Below, in pieces: positions 18,711-33,548 of a stretch of DNA of 64,000 nucleotides. This stretch comes from Escherichia phage ECO319P1. The position numbers and the translations under genes were made by a program. The notes beneath the pieces are model-generated. The model saw nothing but the letters and a program-made list of their open reading frames with translations, ran no database searches and was not told the origin of the DNA. Location: sequence record OP172790, one strand, 5' to 3'. Every line of letters starts with the position of its first letter. Position 1 is the first letter of the stretch.

Positions 18711-18987
18711 GATTATTAAGTTCTACAGCGACACTTGTGCGCCTTGTAAAGCAATGGCTCCAATCTTTGACGACATTGCAGAAGAACTGTCCACAGATAC
18801 TGTGGTATTCGGTTCAACCAACATCGGTGAAAGTGACAACCGCGCTGTTGCTCAGTCATTCGGTGTTCGTGGTCTTCCGACTGTTGTGATTCTGAAAGAT
18901 GATGAAGCAGTTGGCATCAAAACTGGTGCTCAGACTAAAGATTCACTGAAGAAATTCATTACCGACACAATTGGGGAGGCCAGCTAA
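18703..18987 (+). CDS. thioredoxin
   Basis: CAPC redox motif in FYSDTCAPCKAMAP context; AGGAGAAGG RBS before ATG 18703 (track start 18667 is upstream and overlaps dcd). Confidence 0.7.
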   Translation: MYKIIKFYSDTCAPCKAMAPIFDDIAEELSTDTVVFGSTNIGESDNRAVAQSFGVRGLPTVVILKDDEAVGIKTGAQTKDSLKKFITDTIGEAS

Positions 18988-25804: not shown

Positions 25805-27640
25805 ATGGAAATCACATCAAGCTGGGACAAACCGTTCCAACTCGAACAGAAAGTGGCTCACATTATTAGCCAACAAGCAAAGCATGGATGCGACTTCAAT
25901 AGTCGTAATGCTCATTGGTATGTTCATCTGTTAACTGAACGTATCATCAACATTGATTTGCAGTTGGTTCCAACTCTGCCACCTATGATGCACAAAGGCA
26001 CTGAATACAAGGCTCCGTTCAAGATGAATGGTAAGCCGAAGGTGTTTGTCCAGAAGTATATGGACGCTCAAGGTCTGACAGAGGATATGGTAGGTGGCCC
26101 GTTTACAGCGGTGTGGTTTACCCCGTTCGACCCAAGTAAAACTTCACGTCTAAAAGATGTGATGTTGGACATGGGGTGGATGCCTACTGAATGGAACCAG
26201 AAGAAGATGCCGTTTCAACTTTGGACGTATAAAAAGCGTCTGGAGAAGACGACCTTCCGCAAGTTCATGGAAGAGCAGACAAGTACCGACGAACGTGAAC
26301 TATTTCTTCCCTTAGTTAATGGTTTTGTTGCTCAACATTTTGTTGGGAAATCAAAAGGTTACATGAAAGCAATCCTCAGTGCTCTGGGGTTTGATTTAAA
26401 GCGTGTACCGAATTTTGACCAGATTAAGAAGCGTCTTTTGTTGAGTCAGTTCTGGCCGACTTCTCCAAAAATCACTGAAGATTCATTTGAGTCAGTAAGT
26501 GAGGAAGAAGGTCATTCACTGAAACTCCTGAAAGAGCGTATGGTGTGGTCGCACCGTCGTTCACTGATTCAGGGTTTGATTGAACTGACTCGTCAGGATG
26601 GTAAAATCTCTGGTGAAGCTAACCCATGTGCAACTCCGACAGCACGTATGAGACACAAGGGTATTGTAAACATTCCAGCCGCAGGTGCTCCTTTCGGTGA
26701 AGAGTGTCGCTCATTGTTCCGTGGTAATAAACGTACTGGAACAAAAGCAAAGATTATTCATAAACTTACTGCACAGATGGTTGAATCTGGTAAGTTTCGT
26801 CGTAAACCGTTCACTAATATCATGCAGGTTTCAAATGGTAAAGGTGGATGGGAAGACGAAGGTCATGTATCATTCCTGATTCCAGCGGGGCAAGATGCTT
26901 TCGTTGGTGGTGATGGTGCAGGTCTTGAACTTCGAATGTTGACTCACTACCTGATTGCAGTATCCAAAATGCTTCTGAAAGACGCTGAGGAAGCGGGTAA
27001 TGATAAGTTAATCCGTTACTACGGTGCCGCTTTACAGTCAGCATATGAGTATCGTGAGGTTCTTCTGAATGGTGATATTCACAGTCACAACCAGAAGCTC
27101 GCAGGTCTGCCAACTCGTAAGTCAGCTAAGACGTTTATCTACGCATTCTTATATGGTGCTGGTGATGCGAACTTGGGTGGTCAACTTGGTGCAGGCCGTG
27201 AAGAGGGTGCAGCTTTACGTGCTCGATTCTTGAAAGAATGTCCTTGTATTCCAGTTCTGATTGAGTGGGTTCAGGATTTTGCCAAGAAGAATGGTTGGGT
27301 TCCGGCAATTGATGGTCGTAAACTTATCATGCGTCGTGACCCTTTCAGTGGCGAAGTTATGGCTCACAAAGCACTGAATACAATGTTACAAGCAGCAGGT
27401 TCAATCGTGATGAAATATGCAGGTTGTTATCTGACTTCTTGGAATGCTCGTGATTGCTTAGATGCACATCAGGTTATCATGATGCACGATGAATATCAGT
27501 TCACTTGCAAATGGGAAGATGTTGAAGCTTTACGTCGTAACATTGACTCGTGTGTTAAGAAAGCTGGTGAATATTTGAAAATGGAATGTCCATTAGCGTC
27601 TGACTCAATGTTAGGTGCAAACTGGCTTCATACCCACTAA
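25805..27640 (+). CDS. DNA polymerase, family A, polymerase domain only
   Basis: AAGGAG RBS; motif A GGDGAGLELR, motif C HDEYQ; no exonuclease motifs in this ORF. Confidence 0.9.
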   Translation: MEITSSWDKPFQLEQKVAHIISQQAKHGCDFNSRNAHWYVHLLTERIINIDLQLVPTLPPMMHKGTEYKAPFKMNGKPKVFVQKYMDAQGLTEDMVGGPFTAVWFTPFDPSKTSRLKDVMLDMGWMPTEWNQKKMPFQLWTYKKRLEKTTFRKFMEEQTSTDERELFLPLVNGFVAQHFVGKSKGYMKAILSALGFDLKRVPNFDQIKKRLLLSQFWPTSPKITEDSFESVSEEEGHSLKLLKERMVWSHRRSLIQGLIELTRQDGKISGEANPCATPTARMRHKGIVNIPAAGAPFGEECRSLFRGNKRTGTKAKIIHKLTAQMVESGKFRRKPFTNIMQVSNGKGGWEDEGHVSFLIPAGQDAFVGGDGAGLELRMLTHYLIAVSKMLLKDAEEAGNDKLIRYYGAALQSAYEYREVLLNGDIHSHNQKLAGLPTRKSAKTFIYAFLYGAGDANLGGQLGAGREEGAALRARFLKECPCIPVLIEWVQDFAKKNGWVPAIDGRKLIMRRDPFSGEVMAHKALNTMLQAAGSIVMKYAGCYLTSWNARDCLDAHQVIMMHDEYQFTCKWEDVEALRRNIDSCVKKAGEYLKMECPLASDSMLGANWLHTH

Positions 27641-29027: not shown

Positions 29028-29483
29028 ATGGCAAGAAAACCCACTGTAATTGATAACTCATTCCTTGTTGATATGTTCAATTCTATTGACGGTATCGGAG
29101 ATTTGGGAAGTTGGATGCAAGATGTAATTTATGGAAGTGCTCGTCTTGGTCATTCTAACCCATCAGCAGCAGTGGCAATTTTCAAGGCTTTAGCGACTCT
29201 TCCAGTTATTAGCTTTGACACTGTAAAGCACTTCGTAAACAACAGGTCAGAGGTAATTGACCAACGTACATTCAGTGACAGACATGTTTATGCCTTCATG
29301 AACAGAGTCTTATCAGCACGGAAAGGTATTGAGTTTTACTATGAACGTAAGACTGGTCAGAAATTTCATAGCATTGAACCAGTGGAAGATGTTGATTCTA
29401 CTGATTTTGTCTATGCTGATGGTGTAAAAGCCAGTGAATTAGTTTACGAAAATGTTGTAAGAAATCATGGAACCGAACACTAA
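29028..29483 (+). CDS. hypothetical protein
   Basis: Track start 29004 lies inside the conserved motif; ATG 29028 chosen instead. Confidence 0.5.
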   Translation: MARKPTVIDNSFLVDMFNSIDGIGDLGSWMQDVIYGSARLGHSNPSAAVAIFKALATLPVISFDTVKHFVNNRSEVIDQRTFSDRHVYAFMNRVLSARKGIEFYYERKTGQKFHSIEPVEDVDSTDFVYADGVKASELVYENVVRNHGTEH

Positions 29484-29558
29484 TGTATAGTGTCTAATGA
29501 GCGAAGGACGTTTTAACTGAGCCTTCACAATTGAGTTTTATATAAGGAAATATATCAT

Positions 29559-30326
29559 ATGTCTACTGCAATCCCTTCTACCTCCTCTTCTAAAAAATCT
29601 CGCACTGTTTATGATGCAATTGAAAACGATGTTTACGACGCACGTATCGTCCGCTTCATTGGTCTGGGTGTTCAGGAACAACCTGAATGGCAGGGTGAGA
29701 AGAAATCTCCAGCCTTTAAATGCTCCATCTCTTTTGAACTGATTGATATCGACGCAACTGGTCGCACTTTCGAAGGTGATGAAGATAAAGTCGGTAAGCC
29801 GATTGACCCTCGTCCTTCTTGCATGTTCAAAGATTACTACCTGTTCCCAGGCGCTAAACGTGGCGGTGTGTTCGACCTGTGTAAAGCAATCGACCCATCA
29901 ATCACTGAAGTTCCTCGTAATCTGGAATGGTTCATGGATAAGCTGGGTGAAGTTGTGAGTGTTGGTGTTGGTTCTTATACTACCAAAGCTGGTGTAACTC
30001 GTAACAAAGTTACTTCTGTTGGTGCTGTAAGTTCTCGTAACAAGCCTAAAGTTGGTGAAGCACGTTCTGAACTGGTTGGTTTCAACCCGTATGTAGATTC
30101 TCCGGAAATGGTTCAGGCCTACGGTAAAGTTTACAAATTCCAGCGTGACATGCTGACTGAAGCACACGATAAAGCGAATATCCCGTTTGCTGGTAAAGAG
30201 CCAGTTAACGACAGCGGTGATGGTGAGCGTCCAAGCAACACTGAAACTCGTGAAGAGCAGAAGTACTCCAAGACTTCTAATCAAACTCCTAACGATGTTC
30301 CTTTCGACGACGATATCCCGTTCTAA
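29559..30326 (+). CDS. putative single-stranded DNA-binding protein with acidic C-terminal tail
   Basis: C-terminus PFDDDIPF matches the E. coli SSB tip DDDIPF; position within replication module. Confidence 0.55.
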   Translation: MSTAIPSTSSSKKSRTVYDAIENDVYDARIVRFIGLGVQEQPEWQGEKKSPAFKCSISFELIDIDATGRTFEGDEDKVGKPIDPRPSCMFKDYYLFPGAKRGGVFDLCKAIDPSITEVPRNLEWFMDKLGEVVSVGVGSYTTKAGVTRNKVTSVGAVSSRNKPKVGEARSELVGFNPYVDSPEMVQAYGKVYKFQRDMLTEAHDKANIPFAGKEPVNDSGDGERPSNTETREEQKYSKTSNQTPNDVPFDDDIPF

Positions 30327-30351: not shown

Positions 30352-30374
30352 GAGGCCTTCGGGCCTCTTTATTT
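30352..30374 (+). terminator. rho-independent terminator (UUCG tetraloop)
   Basis: GAGGCC / GGCCTC stem, TTCG loop, then TTTATTT. Confidence 0.7.
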
Positions 30375-30398
30375 GGATTGTAATAACAAGGATGTGTT

Positions 30399-30956
30399 AT
30401 GGCAAAGCGACTAAGTGCTCCAGTTCCAAAGAAGGAACATTATAAAGACTTCGATGAATTATATCGTGAGTATTGGGCACCACTTCAGAAACAATTCTTC
30501 TACATGGAAAAGGATTATCAGCTTGCTGAGGATTTAGCTCAGGAAACGATGCTCCGAGTGTGGCAGTATTGGGACAGAATCCAGTGGGATAAACTTGGTG
30601 GTGTGATTGGTACAATTGCCAACAACGTCCGGTACGGTTATGTTCGAAAAGAATTTGACCGAGTTGATACAGAGATGTACGACAACATTCTGGATTTTGA
30701 ATGTCATGATGATGGCTTAACTGACCCAATTCGTGATGTATTAAATAATGAGGCAAGCACTTTTGTTCAGTATGCTTTTGAGAAGCTTAAACCACAGGAA
30801 CGTGAGTTGTTCTCGGATGTTTATCTGAAGAACCTGAAAACAAAAGATGTTGCAAAGAAACATGGTATGACTACTGGCCATATCTATGTTCAATTGTTCC
30901 GTATTCGAACTCAACTGGTTACTAACCTTGAGCGTCACGATATTGGAACAAACTAA
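30399..30956 (+). CDS. phage-encoded sigma-70 family (ECF-like) sigma factor
   Basis: Region-2-like LAEDLAQETMLRVWQYW and region-4 HTH DVAKKHGMTTGHIYVQLFRIRTQL. Confidence 0.7.
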   Translation: MAKRLSAPVPKKEHYKDFDELYREYWAPLQKQFFYMEKDYQLAEDLAQETMLRVWQYWDRIQWDKLGGVIGTIANNVRYGYVRKEFDRVDTEMYDNILDFECHDDGLTDPIRDVLNNEASTFVQYAFEKLKPQERELFSDVYLKNLKTKDVAKKHGMTTGHIYVQLFRIRTQLVTNLERHDIGTN

Positions 30957-30968
30957 GGAGAATATAAC

Positions 30969-31169
30969 ATGGAAGTTGTATACCAGAACGGCATGTATGA
31001 AGTAAAAGTTAATCGGTACGATAATGAGTACCTAGTTGTTAACGTGAAGACTGATGTGGTTGAGGCTCGTGAATCGGCATTGCCCACAGCAGAATACAAA
31101 GCTGATGCTCTTCGTGAAGTTACGCTGAAACGTAATGAAGTTAAGGGTAAAGCGGAGGCAGCACAATAA
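30969..31169 (+). CDS. hypothetical protein
   Basis: AAGGAG RBS, ATG start. Confidence 0.45.
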   Translation: MEVVYQNGMYEVKVNRYDNEYLVVNVKTDVVEARESALPTAEYKADALREVTLKRNEVKGKAEAAQ

Positions 31170-32065
31170 TGCGAGTCCTCCTTGATTGCGACATTCTAAG
31201 ATATCAAATCGGTTCAGTGAAAGCTGCTCACCCATTCTTAAAGGGAGAGTTTGTTCCTGCTCCTGAGTCGGAGATTTGTCGGTTGGTCGAGGATTTGATT
31301 CAGCATGTGATTAAGATTAATAAGGCAGACAGTTATGTCTGTCCTTTATCCGGTAAAGGTAATTTCCGATTGGACATTGCCAAACAGGAACCCTATAAGG
31401 GTAATCGAGACCCAAACGTAACACGACCTTTTCACTATGACACTGTTGGTGACTACATCATTAAGAACCACCCTCACGTAATTGTTGATGGGATGGAAGC
31501 AGATGATTGGCTAGGCATCGAGCAGCGTAAAGACCCAGAGAATACTTGTATTGCGTCAAGGGATAAAGACCTTGGAACCGTATTTGGTTATCACTACCGT
31601 TGGGCTTGTGGCGAATATCAGCCAGAAAGAACAATTCACTGGATAACTCCATACGAAGCAACTGAGTTCTTCTTCCACCAAATGCTCACAGGCGACAACA
31701 CAGATAATATTCTTGGGTGTGGTAAGCGTGAGATGGTTAAGTGGGGAGGCAAAATGATGCTTCGCCGCAAGGGTGTTGGTAAGGGTGCTGCTGATAAGAT
31801 TTTAGCAACTTGCTCAACCGTACAAGAAATGTATGATGCTGTTAAGGCTGAATACGAAAAAATTTTTAGTGACGAGCACGAGGATGTGATGCTCGAAAAT
31901 GCCAGATTGCTCTACATTGGGCAAACACCAGACAAACTGTTTGAGTGGGACTGGCTTGACTACCAACTAAGTAAGGATACTAACGATGAACTTTTACCAA
32001 CTGAACAGCCTGAATGCACCGGACACCCTACTGATGGTGAATCTGAGCCTTATCACGAAGATTGA
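31169..32065 (+). CDS. 5'-3' exonuclease / flap endonuclease (T7 gp6-like)
   Basis: GGAGG RBS; blocks DGMEADDWLG, ASRDKDL, GDNTDNILGCG paralleling T7 gene 6 exonuclease motifs. Confidence 0.8.
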   Translation: MRVLLDCDILRYQIGSVKAAHPFLKGEFVPAPESEICRLVEDLIQHVIKINKADSYVCPLSGKGNFRLDIAKQEPYKGNRDPNVTRPFHYDTVGDYIIKNHPHVIVDGMEADDWLGIEQRKDPENTCIASRDKDLGTVFGYHYRWACGEYQPERTIHWITPYEATEFFFHQMLTGDNTDNILGCGKREMVKWGGKMMLRRKGVGKGAADKILATCSTVQEMYDAVKAEYEKIFSDEHEDVMLENARLLYIGQTPDKLFEWDWLDYQLSKDTNDELLPTEQPECTGHPTDGESEPYHED

Positions 32066-32459: not shown

Positions 32460-33548
32460 ATGAAAAAAGAGCTATTTGCTGTTGATAAGAACGACAACAT
32501 TAAACATTGGACTGTCGAAACTAATGGTGCTGAGATTATTGTCTGTCATGGACGATACCAAGGCAAGATGCAGAAGAAAGTGACAGTCTGTAAAGCTAAG
32601 AATATTGGGAGGGCGAATGAAACAACACCCGAAGACCAAGCGATTCTGGAAGCAGAAGCTAAGTACACCAAGCAAATCGACAAGTGCTATCGGGCGACTA
32701 TTGAAGAGGCAAGACGAGTCGGTCAAGTCCTTCCTATGCTCGCTCATAATTTCCTTGACCACGGGCATCGTATTAGCTTTCCTTGCTATGTCAGTGCTAA
32801 GCTGGATGGTGTACGATGCGTTGCAACTGTGGAAGATGGTGCTGTCACACTAACAAGTCGTGGTGGTAAGGAATATCCTTGCCCAGAGGCAATTCATGAT
32901 GAACTGGTTCACCTTAGTTATCTCACTGGAATTACTAAGTTTGATGGCGAGCTTTATATTCATGGTACGAAGCTTCAACACATTGTGTCGGCTGTTAAAA
33001 AACCTAACGACTTGACTCCGAAGTTGAAGTATTGTATCTTTGACTTACCGAACACTGATAAGTGGGAAGACCGTTGGTTAAAGCTCAAAGACATTAAGAA
33101 TAAATATCGTCTTGACCACATGGAAATCGTTGATTGTATCAAAGTTGAGAACAAACTCTCAGCGGAAATGATGCTTCACAAATACATGGGTCAAGGTTAC
33201 GAGGGTCTGATGCTTCGTAATCTGGATGGGAAGTATGAATACAACCATCGTTCAGCAGATTTACAGAAGTGGAAAATCATGCAAGACCTCGAAGCCAAGG
33301 TAATTAGTGTTGCAGAAGATAAGAATGGTGAGGGTGTCCTGACTTGCCATATAGCGGGTGAACCCGATAAAATCTTCGATGTTAAAATGCGTGGGACACA
33401 TGAGGAACGTCTGGTTGACAATCAGAAGAAGTTGATTGGCAAGTGGATTGTTGTTATTTATCAGGCATTTACAGAAGCAGGGTTGCCTCAGTTCCCGGTA
33501 GGCAGCCATGTCCGTGAATGTGATGAAGAGGGGAACCCAATTGAATAA
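32460..33548 (+). CDS. ATP-dependent DNA ligase
   Basis: Adenylation motif I SAKLDGVRC (KxDG); size and context like T7 ligase. Confidence 0.85.
   Translation: MKKELFAVDKNDNIKHWTVETNGAEIIVCHGRYQGKMQKKVTVCKAKNIGRANETTPEDQAILEAEAKYTKQIDKCYRATIEEARRVGQVLPMLAHNFLDHGHRISFPCYVSAKLDGVRCVATVEDGAVTLTSRGGKEYPCPEAIHDELVHLSYLTGITKFDGELYIHGTKLQHIVSAVKKPNDLTPKLKYCIFDLPNTDKWEDRWLKLKDIKNKYRLDHMEIVDCIKVENKLSAEMMLHKYMGQGYEGLMLRNLDGKYEYNHRSADLQKWKIMQDLEAKVISVAEDKNGEGVLTCHIAGEPDKIFDVKMRGTHEERLVDNQKKLIGKWIVVIYQAFTEAGLPQFPVGSHVRECDEEGNPIE

What the first reader, a model, noticed from the sequence alone, without database searches (positions are those of the whole stretch)
29559..30326. Putative SSB ending in the E. 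coli SSB tip DDDIPF
The last six residues are identical to the C-terminal tip of E. coli SSB, which recruits many host replication and repair proteins, while the body of the protein does not obviously resemble host SSB. The phage protein may use this tail to capture host SSB-interacting proteins.
Basis: partly seen in the sequence, partly recalled or inferred. Interest (0 to 1): 0.45.

Follow-up and report, generated by a model that had tools for sequence, protein, structure and literature searches.

The report
Unannotated phage SSB with host-like tail
This gene most likely encodes the phage's own single-stranded-DNA-binding protein, from a family that databases still call "hypothetical", and it ends in the same seven residues that E. 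coli SSB uses to recruit replication and repair enzymes.

Summary
Window 29559-30326 (+) is a 255-aa ORF ending ...PFDDDIPF*, and its last seven residues match E. coli SSB. The window is a close relative of Cronobacter phage GAP52, in the 7-11/phiEco32 group.

The gene is "hypothetical protein" in all 137 matching phage records. It has no Pfam family, and its PHROG has no assigned function.

Across 106 full-length homologs the linker is hypervariable, while the tip is more conserved than the core (99 end in PF).

The gene lies in a T7-style replication module, and no other SSB is annotated in the closely related GAP52 genome.

Best reading: it is the phage's replicative SSB, a new sequence family of a known kind.

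Whether the tail captures host partners is untested. It may equally serve the phage's own replisome, because the gp4-like helicase and a conserved 81-aa protein also end in PF, and E. coli Kuravirus orthologues end DSPF.

The parts
29544..29548 (+). Ribosome-binding site AAGGA, 10 nt upstream of the ATG
   Evidence: Read directly from the sequence.
29559..30326 (+). Complete ORF (255 aa plus stop): candidate phage SSB. Orthologue of GAP52_043 and of 7-11 gene 48.
   Evidence: 98.8% aa identity to GAP52 and 85.6% to 7-11. phrog_6599 at E 8e-107, function unknown.
29559..29597 (+). N-terminal arm, aa 1-13 (MSTAIPS...). Low model confidence, but I5 and P6 are invariant. Possibly an oligomerisation arm (inference).
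   Evidence: Invariant columns in A1. pLDDT 57 for residues 1-10. [quoted passage not shown]
29598..30023 (+). Predicted OB-fold core, aa 14-155: beta1 24-39, beta2 52-66, beta3 85-95, helices 103-111 and 122-127, beta4 132-141, beta5 147-155.
30024..30200 (+). Helical C-terminal extension of the core, aa 156-214, ending in the conserved motif NIPFAGKEP (aa 207-215).
   Evidence: Helices 159-164, 182-189 and 193-200. Y178, Q195, A202, D204, A211 and G212 are invariant.
30201..30299 (+). Disordered, hypervariable linker, aa 215-247.
   Evidence: pLDDT about 49-51. Column entropy 2.81 bits. The tail after the AGKE motif (linker plus tip) is 13-46 aa long across homologs.
30300..30323 (+). C-terminal tip PFDDDIPF, aa 248-255. 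The last seven residues are identical to E. coli SSB.
   Evidence: Tip entropy 1.05 bits; 99 of 106 homologs end in PF.
30352..30377 (+). GC-rich hairpin GAGGCC-TTCG-GGCCTC followed by a T-run, 26 nt after the stop and ahead of the sigma gene. It may be a terminator or an RNA processing or stability element.
   Evidence: A stem-loop is described at the same position between 7-11 genes 48 and 47 and in GAP52, with an RNA 5' end mapping there (PMC8948821).
15722..17521 (+). T7 gp4-like primase/helicase whose C-terminus is also acidic and ends ...EDNGKDKPF. It could share the SSB tail's docking site.
   Evidence: Pfam DnaB_C, Helic-prim_T7_N and Toprim_2. 30.6% identity to the T7 gp4 helicase domain. 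Tail read. T7 gp4 tail ...SNDTDF verified.
25805..27640 (+). Family-A DNA polymerase, the polymerase part of a split enzyme. Its 3'-5' exonuclease subunit is at 17518-18012 and a thioredoxin-like CxxC protein at about 18703-18987. It is a candidate partner for the tail.
   Evidence: Pfam DNA_pol_A and DNA_pol_A_exo1. GAP52 annotation. CAPC motif.
10898..11143 (+). 81-aa protein of unknown function ending ...QDEDIPF. It is the third PF-ended protein in the window, and its tip is conserved in homologs.

Best explanation
The gene encodes the phage's replicative single-stranded-DNA-binding protein, the functional counterpart of T7 gp2.5 in a T7-style replisome.

Proposed mechanism:
- A diverged single OB-fold core with a helical extension coats ssDNA exposed at the fork. 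It may assemble cooperatively through its conserved N-terminal arm.
- A flexible linker of about 33 residues presents the acidic tip ...FDDDIPF.
- The tip's terminal Pro-Phe and free carboxylate dock into a hydrophobic pocket with a basic rim on partner proteins.
- The primary partners are probably the phage's own polymerase/thioredoxin and primase-helicase.
- Because the tip is identical to the host's, it could also engage host SSB-binding enzymes.

What is shown and what is inferred:
- Shown by computation: the fold, the three-part architecture, the conservation pattern and the genomic context.
- Inferred: ssDNA binding, the identity of the partners and the oligomeric state.
For: (1) AF2 model: pLDDT 86, pTM 0.76, canonical OB topology b1-b2-b3-helix-b4-b5.
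(3) Core, disordered linker and acidic x-P-F tip are conserved, and the tip is more conserved than the core.
(4) In the wider superfamily (268 representatives at 50% clustering with E<=1e-3), 98 of 128 full-length members end in F, W or Y and 114 of 128 have net-acidic last-10 residues.
(5) Context: family-A polymerase, 5'-3' exonuclease, ATP-dependent ligase, gp4-like primase/helicase and thioredoxin.
(6) The same order, polymerase - SSB-like - exonuclease, occurs in a Zobellviridae Vibrio phage.
(7) No other SSB is annotated in the whole GAP52 genome, and there is no E. coli SSB homolog in the window.
(8) Precedent: the non-canonical DUF669 SSB of HK620 ends NDYPPF, and its last six residues are required to load its phage partner Sak4 (PMC5928155).
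(9) Three of about 88 window genes end in PF against 0.13 expected, P about 4e-4, and the replicative helicase is one of them.
Against: - There is no experimental ssDNA-binding data for any member of this family.
- There is no significant sequence or profile link to any tested SSB: T7 gp2.5; N4 SSB at 0.4% for the family and 19% for the superfamily; DUF669 at about 0.2%.
- The absence of another SSB rests on annotation plus one tblastn. A second cryptic SSB among the many hypothetical proteins was not excluded.
Confidence: 0.75

Rival explanations
1. Host-interactome hijacker or decoy. The main role of the protein, or of its tail, is to bind host proteins that recognise the SSB C-terminus (Pol III chi, PriA, RecQ, ExoI, RecO, RNase HI, Ung and others). 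It would either recruit them to phage DNA or draw them away from host SSB.
For: The last seven residues are identical to E. coli SSB. 33 of 106 homologs carry exactly DDDIPF. No DNA-level similarity to E. coli ssb was found, which argues against recent capture of the tail from E. coli ssb. The natural host's ssb gene was not compared. A second small protein in the same phage also ends DEDIPF with a conserved tip.
Against: E. coli Kuravirus orthologues end DDNDSPF. Other tips in the family include DDDKPF, DNDRPF and EDDSPF. Distant relatives end EW, EF or PY. The phage's own helicase ends KPF, which points to a phage-internal docking site. No interaction data exist.
Confidence: 0.25
2. Recombination-dedicated SSB. 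Like HK620 SSB with Sak4, it mainly loads a phage annealase or recombinase rather than serving the replication fork.
For: HK620 precedent (PMC5928155). A RecBCD-inhibitor gene and endonuclease VII lie in the same region of GAP52.
Against: No Sak4, Erf, RecT or other annealase is annotated in GAP52. The gene's neighbours are polymerase, exonuclease and ligase. No second SSB is annotated in GAP52 that could cover the replication role.
Confidence: 0.1
3. Transcription co-activator in the manner of N4 SSB, acting with the adjacent phage sigma factor.
For: The gene lies immediately upstream of the ECF-like sigma gene. N4 SSB aligns in register with the superfamily profile, but weakly, at 19% probability.
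Against: The adjacency is not conserved: four genes separate the two in SU10. The N4 SSB C-terminus (...SLFGKK) is unrelated to this tip. In 7-11, the purified sigma factor was cloned and tested with E. coli core RNAP in vitro, and that paper concludes it directs host core RNAP to the late promoters (PMC8948821).
Confidence: 0.05
4. Replication initiator or primase-like protein, as the weak NCBIfam match to the 'NGO0469 family phage replication initiation protein' would suggest.
For: NF046043 at E 3.6e-7 over residues 19-68.
Against: The score is 29.9 bits against a cutoff of 75, and only beta1-beta2 are covered. The NGO0469 label derives from weak 2007 BLAST hits (26% over 109 aa to a nanovirus Rep, 32% over 87 aa to a phage primase) with no experiment (PMC1931599). 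No nuclease, primase or HUH fold appears in the model. The phage already encodes a gp4-like primase.
Confidence: 0.03

Closest known systems
Bacterial SSB (E. coli SSB; Pfam SSB family)
   Same: An OB-fold core, an intrinsically disordered linker and an acidic tip. The last seven residues, FDDDIPF, are identical.
T7 gp2.5 (and the gp4 tail system)
   Same: A phage SSB of similar size (232 against 255 aa) with an acidic tail ending in Phe, encoded in a replisome with a gp4-like primase/helicase, a family-A polymerase, thioredoxin and a 5'-3' exonuclease. The helicase also carries an acidic tail ending in Phe.
DUF669 / N4-SSB group of 'highly evolved OB-fold' phage SSBs (Kazlauskas et al. 2016, PMC4889955; HK620 SSB, PMC5928155)
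   Same: A non-canonical phage SSB class with no obvious OB sequence signature, usually an acidic C-terminal tail (HK620 ends ...NDYPPF), found in phages that lack a known SSB. One of 76 superfamily members hits Pfam DUF669 (E 3.5e-4). A DUF669 protein appears in the BFVD fold hits at E 1e-3.
   Different: Profile-profile comparison gives no significant link: about 0.2% to DUF669, and 0.4% (family) or 19% (superfamily) to N4. The N4-DUF669 positive control gives 90.7%. The window protein itself has no Pfam hit. N4 SSB itself lacks the acidic tip.
PrgE of plasmid pCF10 (PDB 8S4S/8S4T)
   Different: 15% identity and no sequence-level relation. PrgE is much smaller (a 17-kDa monomer; 128-136 residues in the PDB chains) and binds dsDNA as well as ssDNA. 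No acidic x-P-F tip was seen or checked for it here.

Membership tests
Bacterial SSB family (Pfam SSB) | Significant sequence match to the SSB family profile or to E. coli SSB | tested here: not met
   Pfam scan returned no family at E<=1. tblastn of E. coli SSB aligns only the tail.
Bacterial SSB family (Pfam SSB) | OB-fold DNA-binding core | tested here: met
   Predicted only. AF2 model with OB topology and OB-fold ssDNA binders as top fold hits.
Bacterial SSB family (Pfam SSB) | Disordered linker followed by an acidic C-terminal tip ending in Pro-Phe | tested here: met
   pLDDT below 52 over aa 221-250. Tip FDDDIPF identical to E. coli SSB. Conserved in 99 of 106 homologs.
Bacterial SSB family (Pfam SSB) | Homotetramer that wraps ssDNA | not testable with these tools
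   Only a single-chain prediction was available.
T7 gp2.5-like SSB | Sequence or profile homology to gp2.5 | tested here: not met
   hhalign probability 0.3%. The recalled gp2.5 sequence was verified at 100% over residues 1-211.
T7 gp2.5-like SSB | Acidic C-terminal tail with an essential terminal Phe, in a gp4 / family-A polymerase / thioredoxin replisome | tested here: met
   Tail. Replisome genes. Whether the Phe is essential was not tested.
DUF669 / N4-SSB group | Match to Pfam DUF669, or a profile link to N4 SSB or the HK620 SSB family | tested here: not met
   No Pfam hit for the window protein. hhalign gives about 0.2% to DUF669 and 0.4% / 19% to N4. The positive control N4 against DUF669 gives 90.7% and reversed-sequence controls give 0.1%. 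Only 1 of 76 superfamily members touches DUF669.
DUF669 / N4-SSB group | Acidic C-terminal tail, in a phage genome that lacks any other known SSB (criteria used in PMC4889955) | tested here: met
   criteria quoted.
DUF669 / N4-SSB group | The same fold as N4 SSB or HK620 SSB | not tested
PrgE-like OB proteins | Structural similarity of the OB core | tested here: inconclusive
Functional SSB (any family) | Preferential, sequence-independent, high-affinity binding to ssDNA | not testable with these tools
   Requires EMSA or anisotropy with purified protein.

The most novel reading that the evidence does not exclude
The phage runs a 'PF-tail code'. Its SSB (FDDDIPF), its primase/helicase (...DKPF) and a conserved 81-aa protein (...DEDIPF) would all compete for one class of pocket, the one that recognises the bacterial SSB C-terminus. 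The phage SSB would then plug phage ssDNA directly into the host SSB interactome. The small protein would act as a soluble SSB-tip mimic that blocks or redirects host repair, restart or defence proteins. That would make it a previously undescribed kind of host-takeover factor.
Probability: 0.12. Interest if true: 0.7.

Novelty: new member of a known kind. Interest (0 to 1): 0.4.

Why it matters
It fills a gap in the replication machinery of the phiEco32 / 7-11 / GAP52 podophages (Kuravirus and Grimontviridae). Some of these phages are being characterised as candidates for phage therapy. No SSB is annotated in the records examined here, and none is mentioned in the papers searched.

It also puts a functional hypothesis on a large superfamily: 268 clusters at 50% identity, spread over many phage groups and four PHROGs of unknown function.

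The protein combines a non-bacterial OB core with an exact bacterial SSB tip. That makes it a convenient natural chimera for asking which SSB functions reside in the tip alone. It also allows a direct test of whether phage SSBs tap the host SSB interactome.

Tried and rejected
- Sequence searches of the protein and of family and superfamily profiles against all PDB chains found nothing.
- Profile comparisons with T7 gp2.5, N4 SSB and the HK620/DUF669 family gave no significant link, although the N4-DUF669 control worked.
- A DUF669 profile against the PDB, run to see whether PrgE belongs to DUF669, gave no hit.
- The phiEco32 phage-sigma promoter motif TAATGTATA occurs just upstream of the gene (29481) and once more (18701), against 0.37 expected. 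At one mismatch there is no excess. Both copies span a stop codon or a stop/start junction. The 7-11/GAP52 sigma factor recognises a different bipartite motif (PMC8948821). Rejected as a promoter.
- Recent capture of the tail from E. coli ssb: no DNA similarity to any E. coli genome.
- The 'replication initiation protein' label from NCBIfam is below cutoff, and the name has no experimental basis.
- The search for related loci for the 81-aa protein in viral contigs found nothing.
- A tblastn with the tip-plus-extension peptide found nothing.
- The supplementary tables of the 2016 survey of viral replication proteins were not available, so I could not see what it assigned to phiEco32.

Full report
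**Observation**

Window 29559-30326 on the + strand is a complete ORF of 255 codons, from ATG to TAA, ending ...NDVPFDDDIPF*. An AAGGA ribosome-binding site sits 10 nt upstream of the ATG.

I recalled the E. coli SSB sequence from memory and verified it as 100% identical to PDB 1EQQ/4MZ9. It ends ...MDFDDDIPF, so seven terminal residues match, not six. tblastn of E. coli SSB against the window aligns nothing but this tail.

The chance of DDDIPF at a protein C-terminus is about 1.8e-8, or 1.6e-6 for the whole window.

**Origin of the window**

The protein is 98.8% identical to GAP52_043 of Cronobacter phage vB_CsaP_GAP52 (Grimontviridae). It is 85.6% identical to the orthologue in Salmonella phage 7-11 and about 40% identical to orthologues in the E. 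coli Kuravirus (phiEco32-like) phages.

All 137 phage records with a match call it "hypothetical protein". It belongs to phrog_6599, function unknown, with a weak link to phrog_862, also unknown. The papers I checked on SU10, Privateer, the Kuravirus expansion and 7-11 do not mention an SSB.

**Structure**

An alignment of 52 homologs (A1) gave an AlphaFold2 model with mean pLDDT 86 and pTM 0.76, and pLDDT above 90 for 181 residues. Its parts, in order:
- a low-confidence N-terminal arm, in which I5 and P6 are nevertheless invariant;
- a five-stranded barrel with the canonical OB order: b1 24-39, b2 52-66, b3 85-95, helices 103-127, b4 132-141, b5 147-155;
- a helical extension (159-200) ending in the conserved motif NIPFAGKEP;
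- a disordered stretch from about residue 215;
- the tip.

PrgE is an atypical and probably phage-derived OB protein. It binds ssDNA as monomers like beads on a string, using an N-terminal tail (PMC11137577). The invariant N-terminal arm here may play the same role, but that is inference.

**Conservation pattern**

110 homologs were found. Of the 106 that are full length, 99 end in PF, 94 fit acidic3-x-PF and 33 are exactly DDDIPF.

| Region | Mean column entropy (bits) |
|---|---|
| Tip | 1.05 |
| OB core | 1.23 |
| Helical extension | 1.36 |
| Linker | 2.81 |

The tail after the AGKE motif (linker plus tip) varies from 13 to 46 residues. A conserved core, a free-running linker and a strongly selected tip are the hallmark of SSB proteins.

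A profile search of 1.84 billion representatives found 268 clusters at E<=1e-3. Of 128 full-length distant members, 98 end in F, W or Y and 114 have net-acidic last-10 residues.

These members fall in four PHROGs of unknown function. Only single members touch DUF669 or an SSB PHROG. In deposited genomes they are nearly always "hypothetical"; a few records, such as Pseudoalteromonas phage RIO-1, say "putative ssDNA binding protein".

**Context**

The gene lies among the following:
- the family-A DNA polymerase (25805-27640);
- an ECF-type sigma factor (30399-30956);
- a 5'-3' exonuclease (31169-32065);
- an ATP-dependent ligase (32460-33548).

Elsewhere in the window are a T7 gp4-like primase/helicase (15722-17521), whose helicase domain is 30.6% identical to T7's, a separate 3'-5' exonuclease subunit, and a thioredoxin-like CxxC protein.

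The re-annotated RefSeq record of GAP52 lists no SSB among its 117 features. This is the same complementarity argument that Kazlauskas et al. used for DUF669 (PMC4889955).

In the unrelated Zobellviridae Vibrio phage PS32B.1, a distant superfamily member ending ...GDDVPW sits between a family-A polymerase and a 5'-3' exonuclease, downstream of a gp4-like helicase.

**What the tail does**

E. coli SSB uses its tip to bind many partners, and T7 gp2.5 and gp4 both use acidic tails ending in Phe to dock on T7 DNA polymerase. Both statements are established knowledge from memory. The T7 gp4 tail ...SNDTDF was read.

Here the gp4-like helicase ends ...EHEDDMQEDNGKDKPF. Three of about 88 genes end in PF, against 0.13 expected (P about 4e-4).

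The SU10 orthologue ends ...EDDNDSPF, although its host tip is DDDIPF. Other family tips include DDDKPF and DNDRPF. So the selected feature is acidic-x-P-F, not literal identity with the host.

The HK620 DUF669 SSB is a direct precedent. Its last six residues, NDYPPF, are required to load the phage partner Sak4 (PMC5928155).

I therefore rank a phage-internal docking role first. Host capture is a plausible addition and is most plausible for the members with an exact DDDIPF. No DNA similarity to E. coli ssb exists, so the tip was not recently copied from that gene.

**Relation to known families**

No significant sequence link was found to T7 gp2.5, to N4 SSB (0.4% for the family and 19% for the superfamily, in register but not significant), or to the DUF669/HK620 family (about 0.2%). 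The N4-DUF669 control gave 90.7% and reversed-sequence controls gave 0.1%. Neither this superfamily nor DUF669 has a sequence relative in the PDB.

I file it as a new sequence family of the known kind "non-canonical phage OB-fold SSB with an acidic tail". It may be a remote branch of the DUF669/N4 class, but that is not demonstrated.

A sub-threshold NCBIfam hit to the "NGO0469 replication initiation protein" family (29.9 bits against a cutoff of 75, residues 19-68) carries little weight. That name goes back to weak BLAST hits with no experiment (PMC1931599).

**Expression signals**

A GC-rich hairpin with a TTCG loop and a T-run follows the stop codon (30352-30377). The same element was described between 7-11 genes 48 and 47 and in GAP52, with an RNA 5' end mapping there (PMC8948821).

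The TAATGTATA match upstream is probably coincidental.

**Verdict**

The SSB assignment is well supported computationally (confidence 0.75). The host-capture idea is open. The finding is a useful annotation and a testable lead rather than a new kind of system.

Noticed in passing
window 10898-11143 (+): An 81-aa protein of unknown function, with no Pfam or NCBIfam hit, ends ...QDEDIPF. Its start overlaps the end of a RimK-like ATP-grasp gene (9714-10913). The tip is conserved in Grimontviridae homologs while the preceding residues vary: 7-11 FDDKIPF, Privateer NDDIPF, BUCT695 DDHIPF, PKM.Lu.22.1 DDECPF, GAP52 DEDIPF. It could be a soluble SSB-tip mimic or a replisome adaptor.
   Followed up: partly
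window 15722-17521 (+), C-terminus: The T7 gp4-like primase/helicase ends in an acidic tail ...EHEDDMQEDNGKDKPF. Together with the SSB candidate and the 81-aa protein, three of about 88 genes end in PF, against 0.13 expected (P about 4e-4). The Kuravirus XT32 helicase ends ...ADGASPW.
   Followed up: partly
homologs P0045, P0060, P0085, P0106: Four family members carry the tip internally, followed by a conserved extension of about 14-16 residues: DDDIPF-AP[IVM]GLQ...[LN][YC]... An internal tip lacks the free carboxylate that SSB-tip pockets normally bind. This is unexplained.
   Followed up: partly
window 30352-30377 (+): The hairpin GAGGCC-TTCG-GGCCTC plus a T-run lies between the SSB candidate and the sigma gene. 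It corresponds to the stem-loop reported in 7-11 and GAP52, where an RNA 5' end with late kinetics maps (PMC8948821). It may be a terminator, a processing site or a stabiliser.
   Followed up: partly
window 29484-29558 compared with L001 8639-9004 (GAP52) and L002 2254-2667 (SU10): GAP52 has an HNH endonuclease gene inserted immediately upstream of this gene and overlapping its start. SU10 has one immediately downstream. The window phage has neither at this position, only a 75-nt spacer. Homing endonucleases seem to cluster around this conserved gene.
   Followed up: no
window 29559-29597 and 30177-30203: Two short conserved motifs lie outside the OB barrel: the N-terminal arm (invariant I5 and P6, low pLDDT) and NIPFAGKEP at the end of the core. 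The second contains an internal IPF like the tip.
   Followed up: no
window 17518-18012 and 25805-27640: The family-A DNA polymerase is split into a separate 3'-5' exonuclease subunit (164 aa) and a polymerase subunit (611 aa), encoded about 8 kb apart.
   Followed up: no
window 29481-29489 and 18701-18709: There are two exact copies of the phiEco32 sigma-gp36 promoter motif TAATGTATA, against 0.37 expected. The published analysis states that no such motif was found in 7-11 or GAP52. Both copies span a stop codon or a stop/start junction, so they are probably coincidental.
   Followed up: yes
NCBIfam NF046043: The NCBIfam family 'phage replication initiation protein, NGO0469 family' shares the beta1-beta2 region with this superfamily. 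Its name rests on weak 2007 BLAST hits. It may be a mislabelled member of the same SSB-like OB superfamily.
   Followed up: partly
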